From Bacteroidota bacterium (GTDB lineage Bacteria; Bacteroidota; Bacteroidia; CAIKAF01): DNA of 64,000 nucleotides. A program made the position numbers and the translations under genes. Shown here piece by piece: positions 7,338-20,189 of the stretch (within the stretch, counting starts at the first letter, position 1; every line of letters starts with the position of its first letter). The stretch spans positions 12,049 through 76,048 of the forward strand of contig VGMT01000008.1 in the NCBI GenBank assembly GCA_016866335.1, written 5' to 3'. The notes beneath the pieces were generated by a model. That model worked only from the letters and a program-made list of their open reading frames with translations, searched no databases and had not been told where the DNA came from.

Positions 7338-8951
7338 TTGATGCAAAACCTCGGACTTCCAAATCACATAAAACCATTGGAAACAAATGGAATTAAAACA
7401 GAAGCAGATGTTTTTTGGAACCTTTGCCCCTCTGAACTTATCGAACACACTCTAAAAGCAGGTCAAGGAAAACTAATTGATTGTGGAGCATTGGCAGTTG
7501 AAACGGGGGAATTTACTGGCCGTAGTCCAAAAGACCGTTTTATTGTATCCGATGAATTAACCCAACACGAGGTTTGGTGGGGAAACCACAACATTGCCTT
7601 TGAAGAAGAGGCCTTTTTAAGGCTTCGCGATAAGATGCAAGACTATTGTGCCACACGAAATTTATACGTTAGGGATGCTTGGGTTGGTTCAGACCAAAGG
7701 TGCCGGGTATCGGTTCGCGTAGTGAATGAAACGGCTTGGAGCAATTTGTTTGTTTACAACATGTTTATAGAGCCATCGGCAGATGAAGTTCAGGCATTAA
7801 AGCCGGAGTGGTTGGTCTTAAATATACCCAGCTTCAAAGCCCTGCCTGAAATAGATGGTACAAGGCAGCACAACTTCGCCATCGTTTCATTTAAACATAA
7901 AACCATTTTAATTGGCGGAACAGGTTATACAGGGGAGATTAAGAAAGGAATGTTTTCGGCTCTGAATTTCATACTGCCCACCCAACACAATGTAATGCCT
8001 ATGCACTGCAGCGCCAATGTGGGCGACAATGGAGATACGGCCTTGTTTTTTGGGTTATCGGGAACAGGAAAAACAACGCTTTCTGCCGACCCAGAACGCC
8101 TGTTGATTGGAGACGATGAACACGGGTGGGCCGATTCTTCTGTTTTCAATTTTGAAGGAGGTTGCTATGCCAAAACGATTGACCTAACAGAAGAAAAAGA
8201 ACCAGATATTTACCGGGCCATTCGATATGGGGCTCTACTTGAGAATATTGGAATAGATCCTCATTCTAGAAAACCTGATTATACTGATTCCAAACTTACC
8301 GAGAATACGCGAGTTTCGTACCCTATTCATTACATAGACCGAATCCAAAATGGATCAATAGGGGCTGAGCCTAAACACATATTTTACCTTACCTGCGATG
8401 CTTACGGGATTTTGCCTCCTATTTCAAAATTGACCGCTGGGCAAGCCATGTACCACTTTATTTCTGGATACACTGCCAAGGTAGCTGGAACGGAAGCTGG
8501 AATTACCGAACCCCAGACCACCTTTTCTGCTTGTTTCGGGGCCCCCTTTATGCCTTTGCATCCAGCACGGTATGCTGCAATGTTGGGTGAACGAATTAAA
8601 AAATCTGGAGCCAAGGTTTGGTTAATCAATACTGGTTGGAGCGGTGGGCCTTATGGAATTGGACAACGCATGAAATTGAATTTAACTAGGGCAATGATTC
8701 GGGCAGCCATGAATGGTCAATTGGATTGGGAGGACTACCAGCAACACCCTATTTTTGGGTTGGCGATGCCCTTAACCTGTCCAGGGGTTCCTGCGGAATT
8801 GCTAAATCCAGAATCAACCTGGAAAAATAAAGAATCCTATCAAGAAGCCGCCTATGCATTGGCTCAAAAATTCCATGCCAATTTTGAAAAGTTCAGTACG
8901 GAAGCATCACCTGAAATTTTAGAGGCAGGTCCAAGGACCCTAGTTAAGTAA
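7338..8951 (+). CDS. pckA: phosphoenolpyruvate carboxykinase (ATP)
   Basis: The kinase-1a P-loop GLSGTGKTTLS and a 537 aa length match ATP-dependent PEPCK. Confidence 0.9.
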   Translation: MMQNLGLPNHIKPLETNGIKTEADVFWNLCPSELIEHTLKAGQGKLIDCGALAVETGEFTGRSPKDRFIVSDELTQHEVWWGNHNIAFEEEAFLRLRDKMQDYCATRNLYVRDAWVGSDQRCRVSVRVVNETAWSNLFVYNMFIEPSADEVQALKPEWLVLNIPSFKALPEIDGTRQHNFAIVSFKHKTILIGGTGYTGEIKKGMFSALNFILPTQHNVMPMHCSANVGDNGDTALFFGLSGTGKTTLSADPERLLIGDDEHGWADSSVFNFEGGCYAKTIDLTEEKEPDIYRAIRYGALLENIGIDPHSRKPDYTDSKLTENTRVSYPIHYIDRIQNGSIGAEPKHIFYLTCDAYGILPPISKLTAGQAMYHFISGYTAKVAGTEAGITEPQTTFSACFGAPFMPLHPARYAAMLGERIKKSGAKVWLINTGWSGGPYGIGQRMKLNLTRAMIRAAMNGQLDWEDYQQHPIFGLAMPLTCPGVPAELLNPESTWKNKESYQEAAYALAQKFHANFEKFSTEASPEILEAGPRTLVK

Positions 8952-8955
8952 TAGC

Positions 8956-9717
8956 ATGGGACGGGGTCGAAATGCCATTTTTGCCCTGTTCGTATTTTGG
9001 GTTTTAACAATAGCCCTTGCCTGCAACCCAAAATGGGTGGCGGTGCAATCCGATGCTTCCTTTTTATCGCTCAATCAAATTAAAGGAGATTCTTTGGCTG
9101 AAGCCCTACTGAAACCCTACTCCGACTCGGTATCAAAAAGCATGGGGCGCGTATTGTGTCATTCTGCCAAAGCCCTTCCCAAAATAAAAGGTTCAGCCGA
9201 AACCGCCCTGGGCAATTTAATGAGTGACATTGTATTAGATAGAGCGAGAAAAATTCAGCCCGAAGTTCAGGCATCTTTGCTCAACCTGGGTGGCCTACGG
9301 GCATCATTACCAGAAGGCCCTATCGCCTTGGGTAACGTGTATAGTTTAATGCCCTTTGACAATCGAATTGCGCTTGTAAAATTAGGTCCAAAAGAAAAAA
9401 AAGAAATGTTTCGCTACATTGGCGAACACCCCGGCACACCCTTTTCTGGATTTGAACTTCGGTGCGAAAATCAAAATTGGATGGGTTTTTTAAAAGGGGA
9501 ACCCATTCCAGAAAACGATTCCTTCTACGTAGCAACGTCCGATTTTTTAGCCCAAGGAGGCGATAAAATGAATTTCTTTTTAACCAATCCCTTGTTTTTT
9601 GATCCCGGTGTTCTACTTAGGGATGCTATCATTTCTTACATGGTAGAATCCCAACAGGCTGGCAAAAACATCCATAGTCAATTGGACAACCGAATAGTTC
9701 CCTGTACCGAAAAATGA
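8956..9717 (+). CDS. 5'-nucleotidase C-terminal domain protein (lipoprotein)
   Basis: A signal peptide with lipobox LTIALACN is present. It resembles the UshA C-terminal substrate-binding domain, and the stop overlaps the next gene by 4 nt. Confidence 0.6.
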   Translation: MGRGRNAIFALFVFWVLTIALACNPKWVAVQSDASFLSLNQIKGDSLAEALLKPYSDSVSKSMGRVLCHSAKALPKIKGSAETALGNLMSDIVLDRARKIQPEVQASLLNLGGLRASLPEGPIALGNVYSLMPFDNRIALVKLGPKEKKEMFRYIGEHPGTPFSGFELRCENQNWMGFLKGEPIPENDSFYVATSDFLAQGGDKMNFFLTNPLFFDPGVLLRDAIISYMVESQQAGKNIHSQLDNRIVPCTEK

Positions 9718-10667
9718 ACCGCAGAACATTTATTAGAACGGCCGGTATTGCAAGCCTAGGAATTGGATCGGCTGGAAAGGCCATTGGCAAGGAGTTTCTT
9801 TTTAAAACCAATGCCGCCGAAAATGGGCTTAAACGGCTGGTCATTTTGCATACAAACGATATGCACAGCCATTTGGAACCGTTTTCGGAAACAGATCCCA
9901 AATATGCTGGGCAGGGAGGTATGGCCCGAAGGGCATCATTGATAAAACAAATTAGAGCCGAAGGACATTCAACCTTGTTGTTGGATGCAGGTGATGTTTT
10001 TCAGGGCACGCCTTATTTCAATTTGTTTAAGGGGGAGCCAGAGTTTAAAATGATGTCGGCGATGGGTTACGATGTCGGAACCCTAGGAAATCATGATTTC
10101 GACAATGGAATCGAGGGCTTGGTTGATATGATGCGTTATGCCCAATTTCCCTTCGTAAATGCAAATTACCTCTTATCGGATACTCAACTTGAGGGGAAAG
10201 TTAAGCCCTATACCATTATTCAAAAAGAAAGCTTGAAAATTGGGGTTGTAGGAGTAGGTGTTGACCTTCAAGGCCTAGTTAGTCCATCCTTAGTGGGAAA
10301 GGTAAGGTATTCCAATCCAATTCCTGTAGCTCAGGAACTGGCAAATCGGTTAAAATTTGATTTCGGCTGCCACTACATTATTTTGTTGTCGCATTTGGGC
10401 TATTCCTATAAAGGAAATCAGGTATCTGATCTTGTTTTGGCAGAACAAACCGAGAACATAGATTTAATTGTGGGCGGCCATACCCACACCTTTTTGGAAA
10501 AACCAACCTTGATTAAAAACCAGAAAAATCAAGCTGTTTTAGTAAGTCAGGCCGGCTGGGCTGGTTTACTTTTAGGCCGAATTGATGTTTATTTTAGCCC
10601 AAAAGGACATGCCAAGGGCTTTGAATCTTCAATGAATGAAATTTCCAAAAAAACAATAGGCATTTAA
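9714..10667 (+). CDS. metallophosphatase / 5'-nucleotidase N-terminal catalytic domain protein, Tat-secreted
   Basis: A twin-arginine signal MNRRTFIRTAGIASLGIGSAG is present. Calcineurin-like motifs HTNDMHS, GDVFQG and GNHDFD are also present. Confidence 0.7.
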   Translation: MNRRTFIRTAGIASLGIGSAGKAIGKEFLFKTNAAENGLKRLVILHTNDMHSHLEPFSETDPKYAGQGGMARRASLIKQIRAEGHSTLLLDAGDVFQGTPYFNLFKGEPEFKMMSAMGYDVGTLGNHDFDNGIEGLVDMMRYAQFPFVNANYLLSDTQLEGKVKPYTIIQKESLKIGVVGVGVDLQGLVSPSLVGKVRYSNPIPVAQELANRLKFDFGCHYIILLSHLGYSYKGNQVSDLVLAEQTENIDLIVGGHTHTFLEKPTLIKNQKNQAVLVSQAGWAGLLLGRIDVYFSPKGHAKGFESSMNEISKKTIGI

Positions 10668-10718
10668 TTTTTTTTTACATTATTTTCTATCAATATTTGC
10701 ATATAAATTCGGTAAGAA

Positions 10719-10760
10719 CAACTGACAAGGCTAAAACCCCTTCAGTTTGTTTGTCAGTTG
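10719..10760. promoter_or_regulatory. perfect 10-bp inverted repeat (CAACTGACAA ...22 nt... TTGTCAGTTG) in the dnaA upstream region
   Basis: Read directly from the sequence. It lies 32 nt upstream of the dnaA ATG in an AT-rich gap, and the loop is too large for a classic terminator. Confidence 0.35.
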
Positions 10761-10791
10761 TTTGCTCGAATACAATTATTGCTATTAAACG

Positions 10792-12225
10792 ATGTCAGAG
10801 AATCTTCAAGAGGTATGGGAAAGCTGTCTAAAAGTGATTAAGGACAATGTAAGTCCTCAAAGCTTTCAGACATGGTTTGCTCCCATTGTTCCTCTAAAAT
10901 TGGAGAATCAAGTTCTGACCATCCAAGTGCCCTCTCAGTTTTTTTACGAATGGTTGGAAGAGCATTATATTACTCTTTTAAAACATACTGTTCGAAAAAC
11001 CGTTGGAGCGAATGGACGACTGGAGTATTCCATTATTATGGAAAACAGCTACCATTCTGAACGGCCACATACCATTCAAATACCTACCTCCGAAACTCGG
11101 GCTATAAAGAATCCAGCCATTAGTATGCCACTGGAAACCTCGGGTGAACATTCCATTCGAAATCCATTTGTGATTCCGGGGCTCAAAAAAATGCACATTG
11201 AGTCAAATCTGAATCCCAACCACAGCTTTGACAACTTTATTGAAGGAGATTGCAACCGCTTGGCAAGGTCGGCTGGTTACGCCGTTGCCAAAAATCCGGG
11301 TGGAACTTCCTTTAACCCCTTGCTTATTTATGGTGGAACTGGGCTAGGCAAAACACACCTTTCCCATGCCATAGGAATTGAAATTAAACGAATGTTCCCG
11401 AACAAAACCGTGCTCTATGTTCCGGCTGAAAAATTCACCACCCAGTTTATTGACTCGGTAAAAAACAACACGTCGTCCGACTTCGTCAATTTTTACCAAT
11501 TGATGGATGTTTTGATTCTAGATGATGTACATATTTTGGGCGGAAAGGAAAAAACCCAAGATGTTTTCTTCCATATTTTCAACCATTTGCACCAAAGTGG
11601 CAAGCAAATTATCTTAACATCAGACAAAGCTCCCGTTGACCTACAAGGAATGGAGCAACGCTTGCTTTCAAGATTTAAATGGGGATTATCGGCCGATTTG
11701 CAAGTCCCAGAATTGGAAACGCGGATTGCCATTTTGCATAAAAAATTGTACAACGACGGAATCGTTCTTCCCGATGATGTAATTGAATACCTTGCCTACT
11801 CCATCAACACCAATGTTCGTGAGTTAGAGGGGGCCTTGATTTCATTGATTGCTCAGTCCTCTTTAAACCGGAAAGAAATCAACATCGATTTGGCTCGAAG
11901 GATGATTGATAAGTTTGTCCGAAACAATGCCCGTGAAATTTCAATTGAGTTTATTCAAAAGGTTGTTTGCGATTATTTTGAACTGCCCATTGACCTTATG
12001 AAATCCAAAAGCCGGAAACGCGAAGTGGTTCAGGCAAGGCAAATTGCGATGTTCTTTTCTAAGCAGTTTACAAAATCCTCTCTTGCCAATATTGGTGCCC
12101 AATGCGGAGGAAAAGACCACGCAACTGTTTTACATGCCTGCAAAACGGTGAACAACCTCATTGAAACCGACAAGCAATTCAAGGCCTATGTGGACGAACT
12201 GGAAAAGAAAATCAATATTCAGTAA
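10792..12225 (+). CDS. dnaA: chromosomal replication initiator protein DnaA
   Basis: The AAA+ Walker A GGTGLGKTHL, box VII and a C-terminal DNA-binding domain (KSRKREVVQARQIAMF) are present. Confidence 0.9.
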   Translation: MSENLQEVWESCLKVIKDNVSPQSFQTWFAPIVPLKLENQVLTIQVPSQFFYEWLEEHYITLLKHTVRKTVGANGRLEYSIIMENSYHSERPHTIQIPTSETRAIKNPAISMPLETSGEHSIRNPFVIPGLKKMHIESNLNPNHSFDNFIEGDCNRLARSAGYAVAKNPGGTSFNPLLIYGGTGLGKTHLSHAIGIEIKRMFPNKTVLYVPAEKFTTQFIDSVKNNTSSDFVNFYQLMDVLILDDVHILGGKEKTQDVFFHIFNHLHQSGKQIILTSDKAPVDLQGMEQRLLSRFKWGLSADLQVPELETRIAILHKKLYNDGIVLPDDVIEYLAYSINTNVRELEGALISLIAQSSLNRKEINIDLARRMIDKFVRNNAREISIEFIQKVVCDYFELPIDLMKSKSRKREVVQARQIAMFFSKQFTKSSLANIGAQCGGKDHATVLHACKTVNNLIETDKQFKAYVDELEKKINIQ

Positions 12226-12332
12226 GGCAATCTGATTTATTTCTTCAGGGCTTCCTTCCATTCAATTTTATCAACAAATTTCAACCTACTAACCGTTCAT
12301 CAAGGCATTTCTAAACCTTGAACAAACCCAGA

Positions 12333-14657
12333 TTAGGTTTCCGAGATTGGGTTTGATTTTCCATCCTTTAGTTTGAACAAGGTGGGCAACAAAATCAAAT
12401 CGCCCATTAAAGCTACAACCATCACAAAGGCGGTAAGCAAGCCAATCAAACGGGTAGCCATAAAACTAGACAAGGAAAGCACCAAGAAACCCGAACATAA
12501 AATAATGGACGTAATAACAATGGGTTTTCCTGAATAAACAAAGGCATTCGGTATGGCTTCAGACATAGGAAGCCCCTTTTTGCGTTCCACCCGAAGTTGG
12601 GCCAAGAAATGAATGGTATCGTCGACGGCAATTCCGAAGGCAATGGTGAACAATACAGCCGTAGAAATTTTCATTGAAATTCCTAAAAAGCCCATCAAAC
12701 CTGCCAGGGCAAGCAGGGGCAGAATATTGGGCAACAATGAAATGAAAACAATTTTAACCGACCTAAATAGGTAATACACAATTCCCATTATAAAGAGGAA
12801 AGAAATCAAGAGCCCTTGGCCTATATTTAGAGCCAAATTGCGGTTGTTTTTATCAATCAATTCGGCTGTACCGGTTAAGGTAACGCGAATGGGGCTATTC
12901 CCAATAATTTTTTTCAACGCAGGTTCAATTTGCCTCCTAAGCTCAAAGGCGCGCTTACTTCCGATGTCCTTGAAAAGTCCTTTCATTCTGGCCGAACGTA
13001 AATCGGAGCTGAGGTAGGCGTTTAATTTTCCTCCGTTTTCTAAAATCCGAATTTCCCGAACAATTTGCCTTAAACGCGCGGAAGATTTCGGTAATTCATA
13101 GGCATCGGGCATACCTCCGCTCAACGCTCTGTTTCCTATTTTGACCATGGCAACGGGCGAAAAAACGAATCCAGTTTGATAGTAGAAGCGCAGGGTGTCT
13201 TCCATTTGCTCCATTTTTGCCAAAACCACTGGATCAAACAAATCTAGGCTAGAATCGGTGATTTCAACAGCTACCTCTAAAGGCCGCGTACCCTGAAAAC
13301 GCTCACCAAAAAAAGCGAAGTCTTGACTAATTTTAGAATCCCTTGCCAAGTCTTCCAGCAATAGGGTGTTCTCCCTGACCTGAAGGGCTCCAATCAAAGT
13401 AAAAAGAGTAATCAAGCTACATACTATCCAAATGGCCCTTCTGCGCTGTAAAATAATCTGGATAAGTCTGGCAAAAAAATCCGTCCATTCCACCGATTTT
13501 CCTGGCTTAAATCGATGCCCAAATAGAATAAAGAAAGCGGGCAGGTAGGTCAAAGACAAAAGGTACGCGATTCCAACCCCTGCTGCCGTATACAAGCCAA
13601 AATCATCGATGGGATCAATGCCTGAACTGGCCAAGGAACCAAAACCAACCATGGTGGTCAAGGTGGTAAACAGGTTGGCTAGGCCAATGTTTTTAATCGT
13701 GGTTGAAGTCGCTTCCTCGACAGTACTTCCATTGGCACGTTCTTTCAAAAATTTAGTCAAAGAATGAATGGTAACCGAAAGGCCTACAACAACCAAAATG
13801 GTGGGTATTGCACTAGCCATTACATCCATGGACTTGCCGGTTACCTCCATAAAACCCAGGGTAATGGCAACGGCCAATAACACCATAGATAAGGGAGCTG
13901 AAATGGCCACCCATGAACGGTACATCAAAAATAAAATGGTAACCATCAGCACAAAAGCGATGCCTAAAAACAAAACGAGTTCGCCCTGAATAAGGTCAAT
14001 GTAAAAAGCCTGCCCAACACAACGACCTGCAACATGGTATTCATCAAAACCCAAAGATGCAACCAAGGCGTTGACCTGAGCTGATAAAGGTCCGCAAGCC
14101 GTATCACCAATGTAGGGAGTATGGTCTAGAATCAAACACACCGACTTTCCGTCCTTTGAAAACATACTGCCATAGTATTCAGGAGTTTGTGTCAAGGCAA
14201 TTGAATCATCGGCCCTAAATTCTGGATTTTGCCAACGTAGGTACGGCATTTCTACACCAAATCCCATGAGCGGGTCTCGAACCATTGAACGGATGTTTGT
14301 GGGTGAAACCACCTTTTCAACAAACCGTATTTTGTGCAAGGAATCGGTTAAAATACTGACCTTTTTAAGAAAAGCTGGGTCGTAAACTGAACCTGTTTTT
14401 TGATGAAGTCCAATTAAGATGAAATCGTTATCGGACCCAAATTTCTTGCGAAACTCTTGAAAAAAAGCTGTTTCTGGGTCTTTCTTTGGAAAAAAGGCTT
14501 CAAAGTCGTAGTTGTATTCCACCAACACAGCCCGCCAAATGCTAAACCCCGCCAGCAATATGCTGAGAATTAGAATGATTTTCGCCTTTAGCGGGGTTAA
14601 TTTCATAGGGTGCAAAGGTGTAAAATATACACCAAAGTTGAAACCCCAAATCAACAA
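12333..14657 (-). CDS. MMPL/RND-superfamily exporter (SSD-type membrane transporter)
   Basis: Two 6-TM bundles are each preceded by a large periplasmic loop (HpnN/MMPL architecture). The likely start is an internal Met MKLTPLKAK at 14606. It lies directly downstream of the AAA ATPase gene. Confidence 0.72.
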   Translation of the reverse strand: MLIWGFNFGVYFTPLHPMKLTPLKAKIILILSILLAGFSIWRAVLVEYNYDFEAFFPKKDPETAFFQEFRKKFGSDNDFILIGLHQKTGSVYDPAFLKKVSILTDSLHKIRFVEKVVSPTNIRSMVRDPLMGFGVEMPYLRWQNPEFRADDSIALTQTPEYYGSMFSKDGKSVCLILDHTPYIGDTACGPLSAQVNALVASLGFDEYHVAGRCVGQAFYIDLIQGELVLFLGIAFVLMVTILFLMYRSWVAISAPLSMVLLAVAITLGFMEVTGKSMDVMASAIPTILVVVGLSVTIHSLTKFLKERANGSTVEEATSTTIKNIGLANLFTTLTTMVGFGSLASSGIDPIDDFGLYTAAGVGIAYLLSLTYLPAFFILFGHRFKPGKSVEWTDFFARLIQIILQRRRAIWIVCSLITLFTLIGALQVRENTLLLEDLARDSKISQDFAFFGERFQGTRPLEVAVEITDSSLDLFDPVVLAKMEQMEDTLRFYYQTGFVFSPVAMVKIGNRALSGGMPDAYELPKSSARLRQIVREIRILENGGKLNAYLSSDLRSARMKGLFKDIGSKRAFELRRQIEPALKKIIGNSPIRVTLTGTAELIDKNNRNLALNIGQGLLISFLFIMGIVYYLFRSVKIVFISLLPNILPLLALAGLMGFLGISMKISTAVLFTIAFGIAVDDTIHFLAQLRVERKKGLPMSEAIPNAFVYSGKPIVITSIILCSGFLVLSLSSFMATRLIGLLTAFVMVVALMGDLILLPTLFKLKDGKSNPISET

Positions 14658-14660
14658 AAA

Positions 14661-16349
14661 CTATTTATGAAAGCCAACCTTAAAGGTTGAGGTTATGGCC
14701 TTGTTTTCTGCCCTCATAAAATTTCTGAAATCCGAGACCGAAAAGGCCGTTTGCTTATTCAGGATTTGCTTAAGCAACCATCGTTTTTTGAACAAGGCCA
14801 AATCTGCTCCCGTAAAAATAAAATCTTGGGCTAACGATTCGCAGGTCCCTTTGGCAATATCGGGAAAGAAATAATGAATCATTTTTTGCCGAACTTCAGC
14901 TGGGGGTATTCCCAGCTCAATTTTATACAAGAATCGGCGTTCAAAAGCAGAGTCCATGGCATAGGGCCGATTGGTTGTGGCCACCAAAATCCCATGGAAT
15001 TGTTCCAGGTGTTGAAGCAAAATCGTTTGCATGGCGTTTTCGGTAGCCATCAGATTTCCATCAAAAGAATCGCGTTGTTGAAATACGGCATCGGCTTCAT
15101 TAAAAACCAAAATGGGAGCATGGGCTTGTTCCTTAAGCATTTGTCGGTATTCGGTAAAAACCGAGTCCAAATTCTTTTCGCTTTGGCCGTACCATTTATC
15201 GCGTTGTTGAGCAACATCAAAAAAAACAAGGTCGCGTTTCGTTTCACGGGCCCACTGTTTAATGGTTTCGGTTTTCCCGGTTCCCGGTGGACCGTACAGC
15301 AGAACGGTAAGACCGGGCGCCTCGCCTGCCTGAACCATTTGCTTGTTAAACCGAGCAAAGGCCGATTTGCGCGTTAAGCGCTTAAGGTCATTCAACGTTT
15401 CCTCGGCATGAGGGTTTAAAAAAAGGCATTTTGGGGTCAATTCAGCATGTTGGATTTTTTGAACGGGACTTTGCACGGGCTCTGAAAAATCGTGAATCCT
15501 TGTGTACCTCTTTTCTATTGGTTTAGGATTCGATGCCGTAAAACGAAGTAAAAAATCGGAGTCGGTGCTGCTTTCTATGCAGACCAGACCTGCCTTTATT
15601 AAAGCATGAGATTCACTAAAAACCGAGTGGCGAAAGGCCGTAATATCTATGGGATGCTTGCAAAACAAGCGCGCTATCAACTTTAACGGATAGGAATGGC
15701 ACTCCACATGATCGAGTAAAGCAAAAAACAAGGCCAAGGCATGTTCGGATTTATCCACCTTTGACTCCAGGATTCGAGAAAACGGGGCGGCTGTAGCCTG
15801 GCTTAAAAAACCATGGCTAAATTGCTCCCAATCTTCCAGCGTCATCAATTGATTGCGAAAACAAACAGATTTGACATAGGCCTGAAGGACTTCCCTTTTG
15901 CATGGGTTTTCTGGCGCAAAGGGCAGGGCATCTTTTCGATTGAATTTAAGGGCTGCTTCGGCCGAGGCAGACAGGCAAATAACATCGGGGCGCTCCAAGG
16001 AATTCGCTGGAAACAACTGCAAAAATCCCTTTTCCAATAAGCCCTCCATACCAAAACAAAGATCATTGGGGAGCATGCTTAGATCGGCCTCCTCTGCAAA
16101 CCGATTTAAATACAAATCGCCACGGCGCTGCCGAATACCACAATAGGCTGAAAGCACTTGAGCCTCTGACAAGGTAATTTGACAGAATTCGGCCAAATTT
16201 ACCATAGCCTCCTCTACATTCTCAATAGAGGCATCGGGCAAAACGGACGTAGAAACAGGCTGGGGATTGTCCCAACGTTGCAACCAATTTATGGACATAG
16301 GAGAAAAATTTTTACGAAGTTCCGAAACAGCAATGCAGACAATTTGCAC
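14661..16349 (-). CDS. AAA+ ATPase with uncharacterised ~330-aa N-terminal domain
   Basis: The C-terminal classic-clade AAA module has Walker A LLYGPPGTGKT and SRH TTNRPYAMDSAFERRF. The Walker B motif reads ILVFNEAD, that is NE rather than DE. The ORF-track start is GTG, and an alternative ATG (MSINWLQ) lies at 16298. Confidence 0.72.
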   Translation of the reverse strand: MQIVCIAVSELRKNFSPMSINWLQRWDNPQPVSTSVLPDASIENVEEAMVNLAEFCQITLSEAQVLSAYCGIRQRRGDLYLNRFAEEADLSMLPNDLCFGMEGLLEKGFLQLFPANSLERPDVICLSASAEAALKFNRKDALPFAPENPCKREVLQAYVKSVCFRNQLMTLEDWEQFSHGFLSQATAAPFSRILESKVDKSEHALALFFALLDHVECHSYPLKLIARLFCKHPIDITAFRHSVFSESHALIKAGLVCIESSTDSDFLLRFTASNPKPIEKRYTRIHDFSEPVQSPVQKIQHAELTPKCLFLNPHAEETLNDLKRLTRKSAFARFNKQMVQAGEAPGLTVLLYGPPGTGKTETIKQWARETKRDLVFFDVAQQRDKWYGQSEKNLDSVFTEYRQMLKEQAHAPILVFNEADAVFQQRDSFDGNLMATENAMQTILLQHLEQFHGILVATTNRPYAMDSAFERRFLYKIELGIPPAEVRQKMIHYFFPDIAKGTCESLAQDFIFTGADLALFKKRWLLKQILNKQTAFSVSDFRNFMRAENKAITSTFKVGFHK

Positions 16350-16384
16350 AGTTGAATTGCCAAACTTTTTTGCACCTTTAAGGC

Positions 16385-17494
16385 ATGGAGAAACTCAACA
16401 GCAAAACCGAACGCATACGTTGCATTTGTGATTTTCTTGACCGGGGCGGAGGCTCCTTAGTAGAGATGCAAAACGCTGTAAACCAAAACCTTGAAGACAA
16501 GGGGCTTGCAACCATAGAGGTACGGAGCCTCAGGTACTCATTAAGGCAACTCAAAGACGGCGACTTTGAACATAGCCTTAGTCATTTGCCAGAATCAGAG
16601 CGCAAAAATTTATTCAACTGGGAATACCATAGAGGGACGTACCGCTGGGCAGAAAGCAGTTTAAAGCCAGAGTTTGGAGACTTGGAAGAAGAAGAGCGAA
16701 GTACCCTACCCTTTTTGATGGGCATTCTAAAAAGGTACGAAACCTTGCCCGCCGTTCGGCGTATTTTGGGGCAATTGGTTGAACATTACCGGTTGAATGA
16801 AGACGATTTAGAGGGAGCATCGGCTGTATTTCACAGTGCACCCACTCTGTATGTTCAAGGCCACGGGAAGGCCTCAGAGAAAAATGTGGTGGAACTGGCA
16901 ATACAACTTTTAGGGCATATTCGAAAAGAAGAGGTCATTGAATTCAATTACAGCTCAGTGGCTTTTGTGAAATCTGACCTAAACACACTGAATTACCATA
17001 CAGTAATGCCCCTTCAAATTCGATTGTACGACAATTTGTATTACCTCAGTGCGGTTCCCCTGAACGAAAACCACCTGCTTACATTTAGAATTGACCAAAT
17101 TCATGGATTAAGGGTGGATATCGGCAGCGATGAAAACGAAAATCCGATCCATTTCGACCGAAAAAAAGTGGAGAAAAAAATGGGGCTGCGCAGCCATTTC
17201 AAGCATGTTCTTGGGGTATGGAACCATGCAGCAGAAGACCAGGTGCACGATATACGGGTAGAGTTTTTTGGTTGGGCCGCCTCCTATGCAAAGCGTTTGC
17301 AGTTTCACCCAACTCAAACCTTAATACATACCAATGTTAGCAACAACAGCTTGGTTTTCTCATTCAAATTGAAACTAAAACCCGAAGAATTTCCAAACCA
17401 ACCTGCCGAGGAGCGTTCGCCAGAATTGTCGTTTTTTTTAGGCCGGTTTCGAAGGTTTGCCAGGGTACTTAGCTTTGAAGCCCTGAGGGGTTAA
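16385..17494 (+). CDS. HTH-WYL-WCX transcriptional regulator (YafY/BrxR/CapW/PafBC-like)
   Basis: The N-terminal HTH is RIRCICDFLDRGGGSLVEMQNAV. The central WYL motif is YDNLYYLSAVPLNENHLLTFRIDQIHGLRV, matching the pattern WYL..a...R.FRldRI. A C-terminal WCX-like segment VRVEFFGWAASY is present. The gene is divergent from the AAA ATPase gene. Confidence 0.62.
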   Translation: MEKLNSKTERIRCICDFLDRGGGSLVEMQNAVNQNLEDKGLATIEVRSLRYSLRQLKDGDFEHSLSHLPESERKNLFNWEYHRGTYRWAESSLKPEFGDLEEEERSTLPFLMGILKRYETLPAVRRILGQLVEHYRLNEDDLEGASAVFHSAPTLYVQGHGKASEKNVVELAIQLLGHIRKEEVIEFNYSSVAFVKSDLNTLNYHTVMPLQIRLYDNLYYLSAVPLNENHLLTFRIDQIHGLRVDIGSDENENPIHFDRKKVEKKMGLRSHFKHVLGVWNHAAEDQVHDIRVEFFGWAASYAKRLQFHPTQTLIHTNVSNNSLVFSFKLKLKPEEFPNQPAEERSPELSFFLGRFRRFARVLSFEALRG

Positions 17495-17520
17495 ATTCCA
17501 CTTTCTGGCAAAAAACCAGC

Positions 17521-17690
17521 GTAGGCCTGCGCCCCCGATGGCAGCGGCAGCGACCGAAGTCGGTGCCATGGCTTGCCGCCCCGCGGAGGCGACCTTGGGA
17601 GCCCACGCAGGGGCCAGCAAGCCGCAGCACCGGCAAGGGCGCTACAGCGAACAGCGGGAATAGGCGCCCAAAAAAATCCCTGAAAGCACA
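17521..17690 (-). repeat. GC-rich long-hairpin intergenic element, copy C (inverted orientation, diverged)
   Basis: It shares GGGCTCCCAAGGTCGCCTCCGCGG and GCTTTCAGGG (as reverse complement) with copies at 20197 and 32455. GC is about 65% against a roughly 40% background, and it lies between the WYL gene stop and the ctpA start. Confidence 0.55.
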
Positions 17691-17713
17691 ACACATTTCC
17701 CTACTTTTACGTT

Positions 17714-19297
17714 ATGATTTCGATGAAGCGAATTACTCTGGCCCTGATTGGGCTGCTGATGCCTGTGCTGAGCCTGCCGCTGTGTGCGCAAATAAACAAT
17801 CCTTCCGAAAAACTCGACGGCCTTCTGTTTTTCTTGGAAAATTATTACCTAGAAAAAATTGACCGCGAAACGCTGATTGAAGCGGCTTTGGAAGGGCTGC
17901 TCAACGAACTTGACCCCCATTCCTACTACTTACCACCCCGCGAACTCAAAGCGTCTGAAGAAGCATTAAGCGGAAATTTTGAAGGCATTGGAGTGCAATT
18001 TAACATTCACAACGACACCATTATGGTGGTAAGCCCCATCAGTGGCGGCCCCTCAGAACGCCTAGGAATTCGCAGCGGAGACCGAATTATTTTCATTGAA
18101 GACACCCTGGTGGCCGGGAAAAAAATAACCAACAACGATGTGTTTCGTTGGCTGCGCGGAAAAAAAGGCAGCATTGTGAATGTTAAAATCATGCGTCCCG
18201 GACTGAGCGATTTGCTTGATTTTGCCATTGTGCGCGATAAAATTCCTGTGTTCAGCATGGACGCAGCTTTTATGCTAAAACCCGGAGTGGGTTACCTGAA
18301 AATAAACCGCTTTGCGGAAACCACAGTAGATGAATTCAAAGAAGGTTGGACCAAATTAAAAGCCCTGGGAGCCAAAGACTTAATCTTAGATTTGCAAGGA
18401 AATTCAGGTGGGTATTTGATGGCCGCCACGGGAATTCTTGACCACTTTTTGGCGAAAGGTAAGTTGCAGGTGTACACCCAAGGCCTGCACAGCGATCGAC
18501 GCGATTTCAAAGCAAGCGGAAATCCGATGCTGTTGAACAACCGACTGGTTGTTCTGGTGGACGAAGGATCGGCCTCGGCAAGTGAAATCGTTGCCGGCGC
18601 CGTGCAAGACCACGACCGAGGTTTGGTGGTTGGACGCCGAACCTTCGGCAAAGGCTTGGTACAAAATACCTTTCCCATGCCCGATGGGTCTGCATTCCGA
18701 CTTACCACCGCCAGGTATTTCACCCCTTCAGGCCGGTTTATTCAAGCTCCCTACAACGAAGGAACCGAAAAATATTACAAGGATTTGGCCAGCCGGTTCG
18801 ACAAAGGCGAATTGACCGACTCGAGCAAGGCGCAAATTCCCGACAGCCTGGCGTTTAAAACCTCGAAAGGACGAACCGTGTACGGGGGAGCAGGCATTAT
18901 GCCCGATGTGTTTGTGCCGCTAGACACCTCCTTTTTTTCGGTATGCCTGAACCGAATTACCGCTGCCGGGCTGCCCTACAATGTTGCCTTAGATTATGTG
19001 GACGCCCACCGGGCAGAACTGCAAAGCGCATACCCCAGCATGGACGATTTTAATTCTAGATTTGATGCCCAGCCTTTGTGGGAAACCCTATTAACCGAAA
19101 TTGAAAAACGTAATCTGCCTTGCGAAACGGGCGATGTTAACCGCAGCAAGGTGTTTTTGCAAACCATGCTTAAAGCCTTGGTAGCTCAAAACCTTCATGG
19201 CCGAGATGCCTTTTTCAAGGTAATGGCCAGCGAAAACGAGTCCATTCAAAAAGCCCTAGAAATGCTGGAAGGCCCTTGGCCAGAATACCTAAAATAA
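17714..19297 (+). CDS. ctpA: S41 family C-terminal processing peptidase
   Basis: A signal peptide, a PDZ domain (GVQFN...GGPSERLGIRSGDRII) and a catalytic region LDLQGNSGG..SASASE are present. Confidence 0.8.
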   Translation: MISMKRITLALIGLLMPVLSLPLCAQINNPSEKLDGLLFFLENYYLEKIDRETLIEAALEGLLNELDPHSYYLPPRELKASEEALSGNFEGIGVQFNIHNDTIMVVSPISGGPSERLGIRSGDRIIFIEDTLVAGKKITNNDVFRWLRGKKGSIVNVKIMRPGLSDLLDFAIVRDKIPVFSMDAAFMLKPGVGYLKINRFAETTVDEFKEGWTKLKALGAKDLILDLQGNSGGYLMAATGILDHFLAKGKLQVYTQGLHSDRRDFKASGNPMLLNNRLVVLVDEGSASASEIVAGAVQDHDRGLVVGRRTFGKGLVQNTFPMPDGSAFRLTTARYFTPSGRFIQAPYNEGTEKYYKDLASRFDKGELTDSSKAQIPDSLAFKTSKGRTVYGGAGIMPDVFVPLDTSFFSVCLNRITAAGLPYNVALDYVDAHRAELQSAYPSMDDFNSRFDAQPLWETLLTEIEKRNLPCETGDVNRSKVFLQTMLKALVAQNLHGRDAFFKVMASENESIQKALEMLEGPWPEYLK

Positions 19298-19301
19298 AGC
19301 T

Positions 19302-20189
19302 ATGAACACCTACGAAAAAGGCATGCTGGCCCCCGACAGCTTAACCGGAAAAACCATTGCAATTACAGGAGGAGGCAGCGGATTGGGCTTAAGCATGGCG
19401 GCCTATTTTCTAGCCTTGGGCGCACAGGTAAGCATTTGCGGCCGAAAAGAAGAAAAACTGGCCTCGGCAGCCGCGGAACTGCAATCCAGAACTGGAAAAA
19501 GCGTATTCTATTTTCCCTGCGATGTGCGGCAATACGATGAGGTGGAAGCCTTTCGCGAAAAAACCATTGAAGCCTTAGGGCCCGTCAATGGATTGGTAAA
19601 CAATGCCGCGGGAAACTTTTTAAGCCCCACCGAACGGTTAAGCCACCGCGCCTTCGATTCGGTGGTTGACATTGTTCTAAAAGGCAGTTACAACAACAGT
19701 TTAAGTTTCGGCAAGTATTGGATTGACCAAAAAATTGCGGGCAACACATTGAACATTGTAACCACCTACGCTTGGACAGGGTCGGCCTACGTGGTTCCAT
19801 CGGCCTGCGGCAAGGCGGGGGTTTTGGCCCTGACGCGGTCTTTGGGTGTTGAATGGGCCAAATACGGCATTCGAACCAACGCTATTGCTCCAGGCCCCTT
19901 CCCTACTCCGGGCGCTTGGGACCGCTTGTTTCCGCAAGAATTTATGCAGCAGGTTGACATACCCTCGAAAATTCCGGTGGGTCGGGCGGGTGTTCACCAA
20001 GAGTTGGCCAATTTAGCGGCGTATTTAATGTCGGATTTTTCGGCCTTTATTCAGGGCGAGGTAATTACCATTGATGGTGGCGAATGGCTTAAAAACGGAG
20101 GGGAATTTAGTTGGGTCGGCGATTTGATTCCGGCAGAAATGTGGGATATGGTTGAGGCATTGATTCGAAGCAAATCTGGCAAATCGTAA
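19302..20189 (+). CDS. SDR family oxidoreductase (2,4-dienoyl-CoA reductase-like)
   Basis: The Rossmann motif TGGGSGLG, the NNAAG motif and a YxxxK-type region are present. It is convergent with the thiolase gene. Confidence 0.72.
   Translation: MNTYEKGMLAPDSLTGKTIAITGGGSGLGLSMAAYFLALGAQVSICGRKEEKLASAAAELQSRTGKSVFYFPCDVRQYDEVEAFREKTIEALGPVNGLVNNAAGNFLSPTERLSHRAFDSVVDIVLKGSYNNSLSFGKYWIDQKIAGNTLNIVTTYAWTGSAYVVPSACGKAGVLALTRSLGVEWAKYGIRTNAIAPGPFPTPGAWDRLFPQEFMQQVDIPSKIPVGRAGVHQELANLAAYLMSDFSAFIQGEVITIDGGEWLKNGGEFSWVGDLIPAEMWDMVEALIRSKSGKS

What the first reader, a model, noticed from the sequence alone, without database searches (positions are those of the whole stretch)
12333..17494. WYL-domain regulator divergent from an AAA+ ATPase - MMPL exporter operon (candidate uncharacterised regulated system)
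The 369-aa protein at 16385-17494 has the three-part HTH / WYL (YYLSAV...LLTFRIDQIHGL) / WCX architecture. BrxR, CapW and PafBC share this architecture and are known as ligand- or damage-responsive switches for phage-defense or DNA-damage regulons. Here it faces, across a gap of at most 86 bp, an operon encoding a 562-aa AAA+ ATPase with a large uncharacterised N-terminal domain, then an MMPL/RND exporter. The ATPase stop and the exporter start are separated by at most 54 nt. PafBC is encoded in the Pup-proteasome gene cluster alongside an AAA+ ATPase (Mpa/ARC), which is a suggestive parallel. A WYL-controlled ATPase-plus-exporter module is not a described defense or stress system, as far as I can tell from the sequence.
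Basis: partly seen in the sequence, partly recalled or inferred. Interest (0 to 1): 0.6.

Follow-up and report, generated by a model that had tools for sequence, protein, structure and literature searches.

The report
WYL regulator paired with AAA unfoldase
A ligand-sensing WYL transcription factor and a fast-evolving AAA ATPase, transcribed in opposite directions from a shared promoter region, form a conserved two-gene unit of unknown function in Bacteroidota, and the neighbouring membrane exporter is an unrelated housekeeping gene.

Summary
All three ORFs are real. The 369-aa protein is a true HTH-WYL-WCX regulator: Pfam WYL is above its cutoff, and hhalign to WYL+WCX proteins gives probability 100%, E 9e-44, over the full length.

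The three-gene reading fails. The ATPase-exporter linkage is found only in the window's own clade, where the whole dnaN-dnaA region keeps the same gene order. None of 80 more distant MMPL loci has the ATPase or the WYL gene nearby. The three next-closest MMPL orthologues follow ndk and a SpoU methylase instead. The exporter also has its own conserved promoter-like block.

What is conserved is the divergent pair. The WYL gene (29-49% identity) sits next to a 545-aa ATPase (about 30% identity) in many unrelated Bacteroidota contexts. A family-wide palindrome, yGCAd-N5-TTGCr, lies in the shared promoter region and is about 90-fold enriched there. The window site is at 16333-16351.

The ATPase has two winged-helix domains followed by a Vps4/p97-like AAA domain. 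The pore loop (KWYG) is intact and Walker B has an invariant Asn-Glu.

The same WYL family also sits next to other gene sets. In two Flavobacterium genomes that set is a JAB / E2-like / E1 operon containing this ATPase family.

Best reading: a WYL-repressed, inducible unfoldase module for conflict or stress. No description of the pair was found in the literature or defence libraries searched. Its function is inferred, not shown.

The parts
16385..17494 (+). WYL-family transcription factor, 369 aa. HTH is at about residues 8-60 (16406-16564). The WYL domain is at residues 179-244 (16919-17116). The WCX-like C-terminal domain is at about residues 270-365 (17192-17479).
   Evidence: Pfam WYL 22.4 bits against a cutoff of 21.8. 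PADLOC WYL 1.9e-11. 28 of 29 family members hit WYL. hhalign to the WYL+WCX family gives probability 100%, E 9.1e-44, full length. The bridged profile hits PafB, PafBC, DriD and BrxR structures. dN/dS is well below 1 against clade relatives.
16299..16384 (.). 86-bp divergent control region between the ATPase start (16298) and the WYL start (16385). It holds a reverse-strand -7-like box CGAAGTTC (16315-16322) for the ATPase and a -7-like box CTTTTTTG (16365-16372) for the WYL gene.
   Evidence: Sequence read. Alignment of five clade members shows conserved blocks at these elements. The Bacteroidetes -7 consensus TAnnTTTG is from established knowledge, and the window's boxes are degenerate versions of it.
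16333..16351 (.). Candidate WYL operator ATGCAG-ACAATT-TGCACAG. This is a degenerate copy of the family palindrome CTAyGCAA-N5-TTGCrTAG. The half-sites are invariant across the clade and the spacer varies.
   Evidence: The pattern yGCAd-N5-TTGCr occurs in 11 of 26 WYL-upstream intergenic regions, at 3.07 per kb against 0.033 per kb in the rest of the same loci. The window has only 2 sites in 64 kb, and one of them is here. The half-sites are invariant in the clade alignment and keep a fixed 10-nt distance from the ATPase-side box, even where a 23-bp insertion moves the WYL-side box.
14661..16298 (-). AAA ATPase, 545 aa. The N-terminal tandem winged-helix region is residues 1 to about 325 (15324-16298). 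The classical-clade AAA domain is residues about 326-545 (14661-15323). Motifs: Walker A GPPGTGKT at 15270-15293, pore loop KWYG at 15186-15197, Walker B ILVFNEAD at 15090-15113, and Arg fingers RR at 14934-14939.
16299..16349 (-). 5' extension of the mechanical ORF (GTG at 16349), very probably not translated. It overlaps the operator and promoter region.
   Evidence: Homologues of 72-86% identity are 545 aa and start at the equivalent of 16298. The conserved non-coding blocks lie here.
12333..14606 (-). MMPL/HAE3-like RND transporter, 757 aa. It is an adjacent housekeeping gene and is not part of the module.
   Evidence: Pfam MMPL 8e-36. TIGR00921 HAE3 scores 221 bits, below its cutoff of 351.9. 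None of 80 homologous loci has the ATPase or WYL gene nearby. The orthologues at 45-53% identity follow NDK and a SpoU methylase.
14607..14638 (-). Conserved non-coding block upstream of the MMPL gene, including a -7-like box CACCTTTG (14613-14620). It is the likely promoter of the exporter itself.
   Evidence: The block is conserved in L002, L004 and L014-L016 even though the upstream ATPase gene has diverged to 53% identity. MMPL orthologues with different upstream genes carry TAAGTTTG or CAATTTTG at the same distance from the ATG. No terminator was found in the 54-nt gap, so read-through is not excluded.

Best explanation
The functional unit is a two-gene divergent module: a WYL regulator (16385-17494) and an AAA ATPase (14661-16298).

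Regulation. The WYL protein is an HTH-WYL-WCX transcription factor. I infer that it binds, as a dimer, the palindrome-like operator at 16333-16351. The operator sits between the two divergent promoters and overlaps the -33 region of the ATPase promoter. By analogy with CapW and BrxR, the bound protein would keep the ATPase, and probably itself, repressed until a ligand binds the WYL domain. In the nearest solved relatives, PafBC and DriD, that ligand is single-stranded DNA.

Effector. The induced ATPase is predicted to form a classical-clade AAA ring of the Vps4/p97/Msp1 type. It would thread a protein substrate through a pore lined by the conserved KWYG loop. The fast-evolving tandem winged-helix N-domain would select the target, which could be a protein or a DNA-bound complex.

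Biological role. The most likely role is defence against phages or mobile elements, or a damage or stress response.

Exporter. The MMPL exporter downstream is an independent housekeeping gene with its own promoter.

Shown versus inferred.
- Shown: domain identities, conservation of the pair, enrichment and geometry of the operator, non-conservation of the exporter linkage, and purifying selection on both genes.
- Inferred: repression rather than activation, the ligand, hexamer formation and unfolding, and the defence role.
For: Pair conservation.
- ATPase relatives at about 30% identity keep a divergent WYL homologue at 29-46% identity in unrelated contexts.
- Of 33 genome loci found with the WYL profile, the ATPase is directly divergent in the window's clade and in L017, L018, L020, L021 (the same contig as L008/L010), L022, L023, L028, L034 and L037. 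The metagenome loci L005 and L011 show the same arrangement. It is on the same strand in L024 and inside a longer operon in L035 and L038.

Operator.
- The palindrome is about 90-fold enriched in these intergenic regions.
- Its half-sites are invariant in the clade, and it keeps fixed spacing to the ATPase-side promoter box.

Regulator fold.

ATPase.
- It belongs to the classical AAA clade and has an intact pore loop, sensor-1 residue and arginine fingers.
- The N-domain is a tandem winged helix.

Conflict-like features.
- The ATPase has the highest dN in the neighbourhood, especially in its N-domain. dN is 0.15-0.41, against 0.01-0.03 for DnaA. Amino-acid identities to L014 are DnaA 96, S41 87, MMPL 79, WYL 74 and ATPase 53%.
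- The same WYL family is paired with different neighbouring gene sets.
- Some relatives sit beside McrBC, HsdR, integrases, RmuC and a Cas4-like DUF2779 nuclease.
- The ATPase family lies inside a JAB / E2-like / E1 operon in two Flavobacterium genomes.
- HTH-WYL regulators are already known beside ubiquitin-like and immune operons (PMC11601596).
Against: - There is no experimental data for any member.
- The defence context is only moderate. Most of the 87 neighbouring genes in 11 loci are ordinary genes, and only a few hit defence models.
- In the window, the pair sits among core genes 2.4 kb from dnaA, with no mobile-element or defence genes nearby.
- No PADLOC model covers the full-length ATPase. 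The IetA match is at the AAA-domain level only. NCBIfam IteA scores 69 bits against a cutoff of 510.
- The window's operator and both -7 boxes are degenerate compared with relatives.
- The nearest solved WYL relatives, PafBC and DriD, are activators, so repression is not established.
- The Walker B aspartate is replaced by asparagine in every member, so the ATPase cycle may be atypical.
- The pair was not found in viral contigs. This neither supports nor opposes a defence role.
Confidence: 0.6

Rival explanations
1. One reading: WYL controls a three-gene unit in which the AAA ATPase and the MMPL exporter work together as one regulated export or stress system.
For: The two genes are on the same strand with a 54-nt gap, and no terminator was detected between them. 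The arrangement is kept in all 7 clade relatives, L001-L004 and L014-L016.
Against: - In those relatives the whole dnaN-to-PEPCK region keeps the same gene order, so the linkage carries no information.
- More distant WYL+ATPase pairs never carry an MMPL gene.
- None of 80 MMPL homologue loci has the ATPase or WYL gene within 8 kb.
- The three next-closest orthologues follow ndk and spoU.
- A conserved promoter-like block precedes the exporter.
- No operator-like site lies upstream of the exporter.
Confidence: 0.05
2. A chromosomal DNA-damage or replication-stress response in the manner of PafBC, DriD or SiwR. The WYL protein would be an ssDNA-activated transcriptional activator. The ATPase would be a housekeeping remodeller that clears stalled DNA-bound protein complexes, using its winged-helix domains to bind DNA.
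For: - The nearest solved relatives by profile are PafB, PafBC and DriD at 1e-15 to 1e-19. BrxR scores only 1.6e-4.
- In the window, the pair is vertically inherited in a core region next to dnaA and is under purifying selection.
- The N-domain fold resembles DNA-binding winged helices such as MarR and Cdc6.
- One family member is fused to an SF1 helicase.
- A Cas4-like/RNase H-like nuclease, DUF2779, recurs nearby.
Against: - The distribution is patchy. Only 43 protein clusters were found by word search and 33 loci among 185,579 species genomes.
- Relatives lie beside integrases, McrBC and HsdR.
- The ATPase N-domain evolves fast.
- The same regulator family sits beside different gene sets.
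- These features fit accessory or conflict genes better than a core repair pathway.
Confidence: 0.22
3. A mobile-element maintenance or regulation module. The pair would be a remnant of an integrative element, in which the WYL protein controls element induction and the winged-helix AAA protein acts as a replication, partition or transposition helper.
For: Relatives lie next to tyrosine integrases, an FtsK-gamma protein and an excisionase-like HTH_17 gene.
Against: - The AAA domain belongs to the classical protein-threading clade with an intact pore loop. It is not an initiator or IstB/DnaA-like clade.
- The window has no integrase, repeats or mobile genes around the pair.
- Many loci show the pair without element genes.
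- It is absent from viral contigs.
Confidence: 0.08

Closest known systems
CapW-CBASS and BrxR-BREX (HTH-WYL-WCX repressors of defence operons)
   Same: They share the three-domain architecture. The regulator gene sits beside or divergent from the genes it controls. There is a palindromic site in the shared promoter. One regulator family is paired with different neighbouring gene sets. Association with ubiquitin-like operons is also reported for CapW/BrxR-like factors (PMC11601596).
   Different: The sequence family is different. The window family's own profile does not hit BrxR or CapW structures at all, and BrxR appears only through a bridging profile at 1.6e-4. The neighbouring gene is a single uncharacterised AAA ATPase, not BREX or CBASS. 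Repressor behaviour and the inducing signal have not been tested.
PafBC, DriD and SiwR (ssDNA-responsive WYL activators of damage regulons)
   Same: These are the best solved-structure relatives by bridged profile: PafBC 4.9e-19, PafB 3e-18 covering HTH+WYL, and DriD about 1e-15 covering WYL+WCX.
   Different: This is a single 369-aa protein, not a PafB-PafC tandem. It is not in a Pup-proteasome cluster. The adjacent AAA protein is not Mpa/ARC, since pup_AAA scores 26 bits against a cutoff of 505. The host phylum is Bacteroidota.
Vps4/CdvC, p97/Cdc48/VAT, Msp1/ATAD1 and spastin (classical-clade AAA unfoldases)
   Same: The AAA domain shares the fold and motifs: Walker A, an aromatic-hydrophobic-Gly pore loop, sensor-1 Asn and an RRF arginine-finger motif.
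   Different: The N-terminal domain is a tandem winged helix, not a MIT domain or a double-psi barrel. There is a single AAA ring. Walker B is Asn-Glu in every member.
IetA of the IetAS defence system
   Same: It is the best PADLOC match (3.2e-23), and NCBIfam IteA gives 3e-19. Both matches cover the AAA domain.
   Different: The score is far below the family cutoff, 69 bits against 510. No IetS protease partner is present. The N-terminal region is unrelated. The match is no stronger than the match to CdvC.
Bacterial ubiquitin-like conjugation operons (Bil, Bub, CBASS Cap2/Cap3)
   Same: In Flavobacterium aciduliphilum and F. cheonanense, the same WYL family is divergent from an operon of JAB, an E2-like protein, a ThiF-type E1 and a member of this ATPase family.
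   Different: The window has no E1, E2 or JAB genes. I found no paper describing an AAA partner in such operons.

Membership tests
HTH-WYL-WCX transcription factors | WYL domain (Sm-like SH3 beta-barrel, Pfam PF13280) | tested here: met
   22.4 bits against a gathering score of 21.8 for the window protein. 28 of 29 family members hit it, best E 2.6e-7. PADLOC WYL gives 1.9e-11.
HTH-WYL-WCX transcription factors | C-terminal WCX domain (PF25583) | tested here: met
   There is no direct Pfam hit. hhalign aligns window residues up to 368 with a family in which 17 of 20 members carry WCX (probability 100%, E 9.1e-44). The conserved FHPTQ aligns with PLHxSQ. DriD WYL+WCX is hit by the bridged profile.
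HTH-WYL-WCX transcription factors | N-terminal (winged) helix-turn-helix | tested here: met
   There is no direct Pfam HTH hit. The hhalign alignment starts at residue 5 and matches the R-x3-I-x3-L ... (V/I)-S/x-x-R-T/S-L-x2-x-L-x2-L-R pattern. The bridged profile aligns residues 6-251 with PafB 5-238. No structure prediction of this protein was run.
HTH-WYL-WCX transcription factors | Binds an inverted repeat in its own or the regulated promoter | tested here: inconclusive
   A family-wide palindrome is about 90-fold enriched in the upstream intergenic regions. The window copy at 16333-16351 is degenerate. Binding itself cannot be tested here.
BrxR/CapW subfamily | Close sequence relationship to BrxR or CapW, and adjacency to BREX, CBASS or another known defence system | tested here: not met
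   The family's own profile gives no BrxR or CapW hit in the PDB. BrxR appears at 1.6e-4 only through bridging. The adjacent genes are not a PADLOC system.
PafBC with the Pup-proteasome/Mpa cluster | PafB-PafC tandem, and an Mpa/ARC-type AAA (coiled-coil + OB + AAA) in a Pup-proteasome locus | tested here: not met
   There is a single WYL gene. The pup_AAA model scores 26 bits against a cutoff of 504.75. The N-domain is a winged helix. No proteasome or Pup genes are among the nine genes from 7338 to 20189 that were scanned with Pfam.
Classical-clade AAA ATPases (PF00004) | Walker A, pore-loop 1 (aromatic-hydrophobic-Gly), sensor-1 and second region of homology with arginine fingers | tested here: met
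   GPPGTGKT, KWYG, N443 and R454-R455 are invariant or conservatively substituted in 44 sequences. Pfam AAA gives 1.4e-22. VAT and p97 are hit at 1e-50.
Classical-clade AAA ATPases (PF00004) | Canonical Walker B hhhhDE | tested here: not met
   The motif is hhhF-N-E. Asn replaces Asp in 44 of 44 sequences, and the catalytic Glu is kept.
IetA (IetAS defence) | Score above the curated IteA cutoff, and an adjacent IetS serine protease | tested here: not met
   69.4 bits against a cutoff of 510. No S8-type protease partner is present. The nearby S41 peptidase (17714-19297) is a conserved housekeeping neighbour, and it is absent from distant pairs.
MMPL/HAE3 RND transporters (neighbouring gene) | MMPL domains, and score above the subfamily cutoff | tested here: inconclusive
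   Pfam MMPL is clearly met at 124 bits against a cutoff of 20.5. TIGR00921 HAE3 scores 221 bits, below its cutoff of 351.9. It is a superfamily member whose substrate is unknown.

The most novel reading that the evidence does not exclude
The winged-helix AAA protein would be the effector of an undescribed Bacteroidota immune or conflict system. It would be a bacterial Vps4/Cdc48-like unfoldase that a WYL sensor switches on during infection or DNA damage. In its fuller form, the Flavobacterium operon with JAB, an E2-like protein, E1 and this ATPase, it would act on proteins tagged by a ubiquitin-like conjugation pathway. That would make it a prokaryotic counterpart of ubiquitin-directed segregases. 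The window would carry the minimal two-gene version.
Probability: 0.15. Interest if true: 0.8.

Novelty: new variant of a known kind. Interest (0 to 1): 0.45.

Why it matters
WYL regulators have been reliable markers of inducible defence and damage-response genes. This work defines a compact, experimentally tractable unit: one regulator, one operator and one ATPase.

- The effector belongs to the classical protein-unfolding AAA clade. It has an unusual tandem winged-helix targeting domain and an invariant Asn-Glu Walker B motif.
- The pair is conserved across Bacteroidota and was not matched by the defence-system library searched (PADLOC-DB v2.0.0).
- Relatives embedded in an E1 / E2-like / JAB operon offer a way to ask whether bacteria couple ubiquitin-like tagging to an unfoldase.
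- The work also removes a false lead. The MMPL exporter should not be annotated or studied as part of this system.

Tried and rejected
1. Three-gene system including the exporter. Rejected on synteny and on the exporter's own conserved promoter-like block.
2. PafBC/Mpa parallel. Rejected.
3. Membership in IetAS. Rejected, because the similarity is limited to the AAA domain.
5. Phage origin. The WYL family is absent from IMG/VR, and the ATPase gave only AAA-domain-level hits there.
6. Direct profile hits of the WYL family to solved BrxR or CapW structures. None were found, only PafBC at E 0.096. This was resolved with a bridging profile.
7. Additional operator sites in the window that might define a regulon. 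Only one other match was found, inside the WYL coding sequence, and it is within chance expectation.
8. Rfam scan of the window. No RNA family was found.
9. dN/dS. dS is saturated (above 1 or undefined), so only the dN ranking and the conclusion of purifying selection are usable.
10. Defence-island enrichment among neighbours. The signal is weak, with DUF2779 the only clearly recurrent partner.
11. Literature searches for a WYL-plus-AAA pair, or for an AAA protein in bacterial ubiquitin-like operons. No description was found.
12. The afdb50 fold library was unavailable.
13. No empty-site relative was found, meaning dnaA-MMPL-S41 without the pair. How the pair arrived in the window's clade is therefore unresolved.

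Full report
**What is in the window**

The region holds three real ORFs.
- The 369-aa protein at 16385-17494 (+) hits Pfam WYL just above the gathering score, 22.4 against 21.8 bits, at residues 179-244. It also hits a PADLOC WYL profile at 1.9e-11.
- The ORF at 14661-16349 (-) carries a classical AAA domain, Pfam PF00004 at 1.4e-22.
- The ORF at 12333-14657 (-) is an MMPL/RND transporter, 8e-36.

Homologues fix the true starts.
- The ATPase starts at the ATG at 16298 and is 545 aa (MSINWLQRW...). Relatives of 72-86% identity are 545 aa.
- The exporter starts at the ATG at 14606 and is 757 aa, identical to P0164.

The surrounding genes are core genes.
- Upstream lie PEPCK, two nucleotidase/phosphoesterase genes and dnaA (10792-12225, convergent with the exporter).
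- On the other side lie an S41 peptidase, an SDR, an NlpC/P60 protein, a thiolase and dnaN.
- The organism is an uncultured freshwater member of the Flavobacteriales or wider Bacteroidota, with about 43% GC.

**Is the regulator really HTH-WYL-WCX?**

Yes, but it belongs to a very divergent family.
- Pfam WYL hits 28 of 29 aligned relatives. No HTH or WCX model fires.
- The family profile alone reaches only the PafBC WYL domain, at E 0.096, among solved structures.
- A full HMMER scan of 1.84 billion representatives with the family profile found 806 proteins at E 1e-3 or better. Many are about 330-aa proteins matched from end to end.
- Of 20 such proteins, 19 carry Pfam WYL and 17 carry WCX.
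- hhalign between the two families gives probability 100%, E 9.1e-44, with 311 aligned columns spanning window-family positions 5-370. The alignment includes the N-terminal R-x3-I-x3-L ... RT-L-x-x-x-L-x-x-L-R helix-turn-helix pattern. It also aligns the C-terminal FHPTQ with the PLHxSQ motif.
- A profile that includes the bridging sequences hits PafBC (4.9e-19), PafB over HTH+WYL (3e-18), DriD over WYL+WCX (about 1e-15) and BrxR (1.6e-4).

The three-part architecture is therefore supported by transitive homology. I did not run a structure prediction of this protein.

**Which genes belong together?**

Close relatives tell us nothing here. In L001-L004 and L014-L016 the whole stretch from dnaN to PEPCK keeps the same gene order.

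The informative comparisons are the distant ones.
- ATPase homologues of about 30% identity (P0010, P0017, P0030) each have a divergent gene of about 360-410 aa upstream. That gene is 29-46% identical to the window's WYL protein.
- None of them has an MMPL gene. Their surroundings differ: McrBC plus an excisionase-like gene, an integrase plus an FtsK-gamma protein, and HsdR.
- Scanning one genome per species with the WYL profile gave 33 loci, all in Bacteroidota-type assemblies.
- tblastn and blastp show the ATPase directly divergent in L017, L018, L020, L021, L022, L023, L028, L034 and L037. It is on the same strand in L024 and inside a longer operon in L035 and L038.

The exporter behaves differently.
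- None of 80 metagenomic loci with MMPL homologues (27-40% identity) has an ATPase or WYL homologue within 8 kb.
- The three next-closest MMPL orthologues (45-53% identity) all sit behind the same housekeeping block: FKBP, FKBP, DHH, then NDK, a SpoU methylase and MMPL.
- Within the window's clade, the 32 bp upstream of the exporter ATG are conserved even though the ATPase gene just upstream has diverged to 53% identity.
- That block contains CACCTTTG at the position where orthologues with other upstream genes carry TAAGTTTG or CAATTTTG. These resemble the Bacteroidetes -7 promoter element TAnnTTTG, which I take from established knowledge.

So the exporter is a housekeeping neighbour, probably with its own promoter. 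Read-through from the ATPase cannot be excluded, because no terminator was found.

**A family-wide operator**

- The WYL-upstream intergenic regions of many loci contain a palindrome with consensus CTAyGCAA-N5-TTGCrTAG. An example is L008, TAACTACGCAAttggcTTGCGTAGTTA. Others occur in L017, L018, L019, L020, L025, L028 and L034.
- The pattern [CT]GCA[AGT]-N5-TTGC[AG] occurs in 11 of 26 non-redundant regions. That is 3.07 per kb, against 0.033 per kb in the remaining 424 kb of the same loci.
- The window has a degenerate copy, ATGCAGacaattTGCACAG, at 16333-16351. Only two places in the 64-kb window match the pattern, and the other is inside the WYL coding sequence.
- In the clade alignment the two half-sites are invariant and the spacer varies.
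- The site keeps a fixed 10-nt distance from the conserved ATPase-side box (C/A)AAGTTC. This holds even where a 23-bp insertion pushes the WYL-side promoter away.
- In other ATPase-type loci the same spacing of 10-11 nt separates the half-site from a CTGCAAAG-like reverse -7 box (read by eye).
- The operator therefore overlaps the -33 region of the ATPase promoter. That geometry suggests repression, as in CapW and BrxR, but activation, as in PafBC and DriD, is not excluded.

**The ATPase**

- AlphaFold models have mean pLDDT 80, both for the full length and for the N-domain alone (pTM 0.69). They show two helix-helix-helix-strand-strand modules at residues 43-109 and 183-253, then a linker, then the AAA domain.
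- The AAA domain is closest to VAT, p97 and Afg2 by sequence profile, at 1e-50. By structure it is closest to Vps4, p97, Rix7, Msp1/ATAD1 and spastin. NCBIfam ranks CdvC and IteA first, both far below their cutoffs.
- Across 44 family members, several motifs are invariant: Walker A GxPGTGKTE, sensor-1 Asn443 and Arg454-Arg455. Pore loop 1 is K-[WY]-[YFV]-G. These are the hallmarks of a substrate-threading unfoldase.
- One oddity stands out. Walker B reads F-N-E-A-D in all 44 sequences, with Asn in place of the canonical Asp.
- One relative, P0087, replaces the first winged-helix module with an SF1 helicase.

**Evolutionary behaviour**

- Against clade relatives, every gene has dN well below dS. 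dS is saturated, so the ratios themselves are not reliable.
- dN ranks as follows: ATPase 0.15-0.41 (N-domain 0.16-0.48), then WYL 0.08-0.22, then MMPL 0.09-0.16, then S41 0.05-0.10, then DnaA 0.01-0.03.
- Amino-acid identities to L014 are 53, 74, 79, 87 and 96% in the same order.
- Both genes of the pair are therefore functional, and the ATPase targeting domain is the fastest-evolving element in the neighbourhood.

**Other gene sets beside the same regulator family**

The WYL family is found divergent from at least three kinds of neighbouring genes.
- A: the ATPase alone.
- B: an operon of about 139-155, 155 and 399 aa with no hit in any library searched. It occurs in L019, L025, L026, L027, L030 and L039.
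- C: in Flavobacterium aciduliphilum DSM 25663 and F. cheonanense JCM 17069, an operon of six genes. These are a 148-aa protein, a JAB peptidase, a 144-aa E2-like protein (UQ_con E 0.16, weak), a ThiF-type E1, a 553-aa member of this ATPase family and a 157-aa protein. The gaps around the ATPase are 12-14 bp.

L034 carries an ATPase 66% identical to the type-C one, but directly divergent from the WYL gene. The E1/E2/JAB block is therefore gained or lost between regulator and ATPase.

A cassette of an unknown 297-375-aa protein plus DUF2779 is the most recurrent extra neighbour. PADLOC gives DUF2779 weak Cas4 and DEDDh exonuclease hints, PHROGs gives a CRISPR/Cas-associated hit, and a survey of the RNase H-like superfamily mentions the family (PMC3985635, found but not read). 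DUF2779 hits 5 of 87 neighbouring proteins in 11 loci, and it is also present in L023, L031, L035 and L038. It is absent from the window.

Otherwise the neighbours are mostly ordinary genes, with a few defence-model hits such as HsdR, RmuC and SoFic in PADLOC and McrBC in Pfam. The defence-island signal is suggestive, not strong.

The wider family of about 550-aa ATPases occurs without WYL in gut Bacteroidales and in a spirochaete. There the similarity is limited to the AAA domain, and the contexts are variable. Neither gene family is phage-borne.

**Interpretation**

- The best-supported statement is structural. This is a conserved two-gene module of a WYL regulator and a winged-helix AAA unfoldase, sharing a divergent promoter and operator.
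- The mechanism I commit to is ligand-relieved repression of an inducible protein-remodelling ATPase whose N-domain selects the target. The biological role would be conflict with phages or mobile elements, or a damage or stress response.
- I put about 0.85 on the two-gene-module statement. I put about 0.6 on the full statement, which includes the direction of regulation and a conflict or stress role.
- The main rival is a housekeeping DNA-damage response in the manner of PafBC or DriD, at about 0.2. The three-gene exporter reading is at about 0.05.

**Comparison with known systems and novelty**

- The arrangement works like CapW/BrxR-controlled defence loci. The regulator is a member of the broad HTH-WYL-WCX family, but not of the BrxR, CapW or PafBC subfamilies.
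- The ATPase is a classical-clade AAA protein. It is not IetA, Mpa, Vps4 or Cdc48.
- Literature searches found HTH-WYL regulators beside bacterial ubiquitin-like (Bub) operons (PMC11601596). They found no description of this pair or of an AAA partner in such operons.
- PADLOC v2.0.0 has no model covering it.
- I rate it a new variant of a known kind and moderately interesting.

Noticed in passing
L035:4339-9890 (Flavobacterium aciduliphilum DSM 25663, NZ_QLSZ01000003.1) and L038:4834-9851 (F. cheonanense JCM 17069): The same WYL family is divergent from a six-gene operon: a 148-aa protein, a JAB peptidase (318 aa), an E2-like protein (144 aa; UQ_con E 0.16), a ThiF-type E1 (411 aa), a winged-helix AAA ATPase (553-575 aa) and a 157-aa protein. 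The gaps around the ATPase are 12-14 bp. This looks like a ubiquitin-like conjugation operon with a built-in classical AAA unfoldase. I found no description of one.
   Followed up: partly
L026:7782-9889, L025:8233-9935, L027:613-2773, L030:755-2435, L039:7782-9889, L019:199-648: The same WYL family, with the same palindromic operator, is divergent from a different three-gene operon of about 139-155, 155 and 399 aa. These proteins have no Pfam, PADLOC or PHROG hit. In L026 an HNH endonuclease gene follows.
   Followed up: partly
L008:9049-11455, L011:2849-5548, L022:11467-14014, L028:4733-7441, L020:3102-4634, L035:2830-4332: A cassette of an unknown 297-375-aa protein plus a DUF2779 protein recurs next to the WYL-ATPase pair, in varying orientation. 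DUF2779 has a Cas4-like PD-(D/E)XK region and a weak DEDDh exonuclease hint. L020 and L035 carry DUF2779 only. The cassette is absent from the window.
   Followed up: partly
window 15090-15113 (ATPase residues 396-403): Walker B reads ILVFNEAD. Asn replaces the canonical Mg-coordinating Asp in all 44 aligned family members, while the catalytic Glu and all other AAA motifs are intact. The functional meaning is unknown.
   Followed up: partly
protein P0087 (881 aa, metagenomic): This family member has an SF1 (RecD/Pif1-like) helicase in place of the first winged-helix module. It is followed by the second winged helix and the AAA domain, again with FNEAD. This hints at a nucleic-acid-linked function.
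   Followed up: partly
window 17287-17301: A perfect palindrome, TGCAAAGCGTTTGCA, matches the operator pattern and lies inside the 3' part of the WYL coding sequence (the WAASYAKRLQF region). It is within chance expectation for the window, so it may be coincidental.
   Followed up: no
window 10792-12225 (+) and 23259-24386 (-): dnaA and dnaN lie about 11 kb apart with the studied genes between them, so the window probably covers the chromosomal origin region. No oriC or DnaA-box analysis was done.
   Followed up: no
window 40183-41784 (-): A second S41 (C-terminal processing) peptidase paralogue is 41% identical to the one at 17714-19297.
   Followed up: no
L022:14700-16409 and L023:15464-16489: A second paralogous copy of the roughly 550-aa ATPase family lies a few kb from the WYL-ATPase pair, just beyond the DUF2779 cassette.
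   Followed up: no
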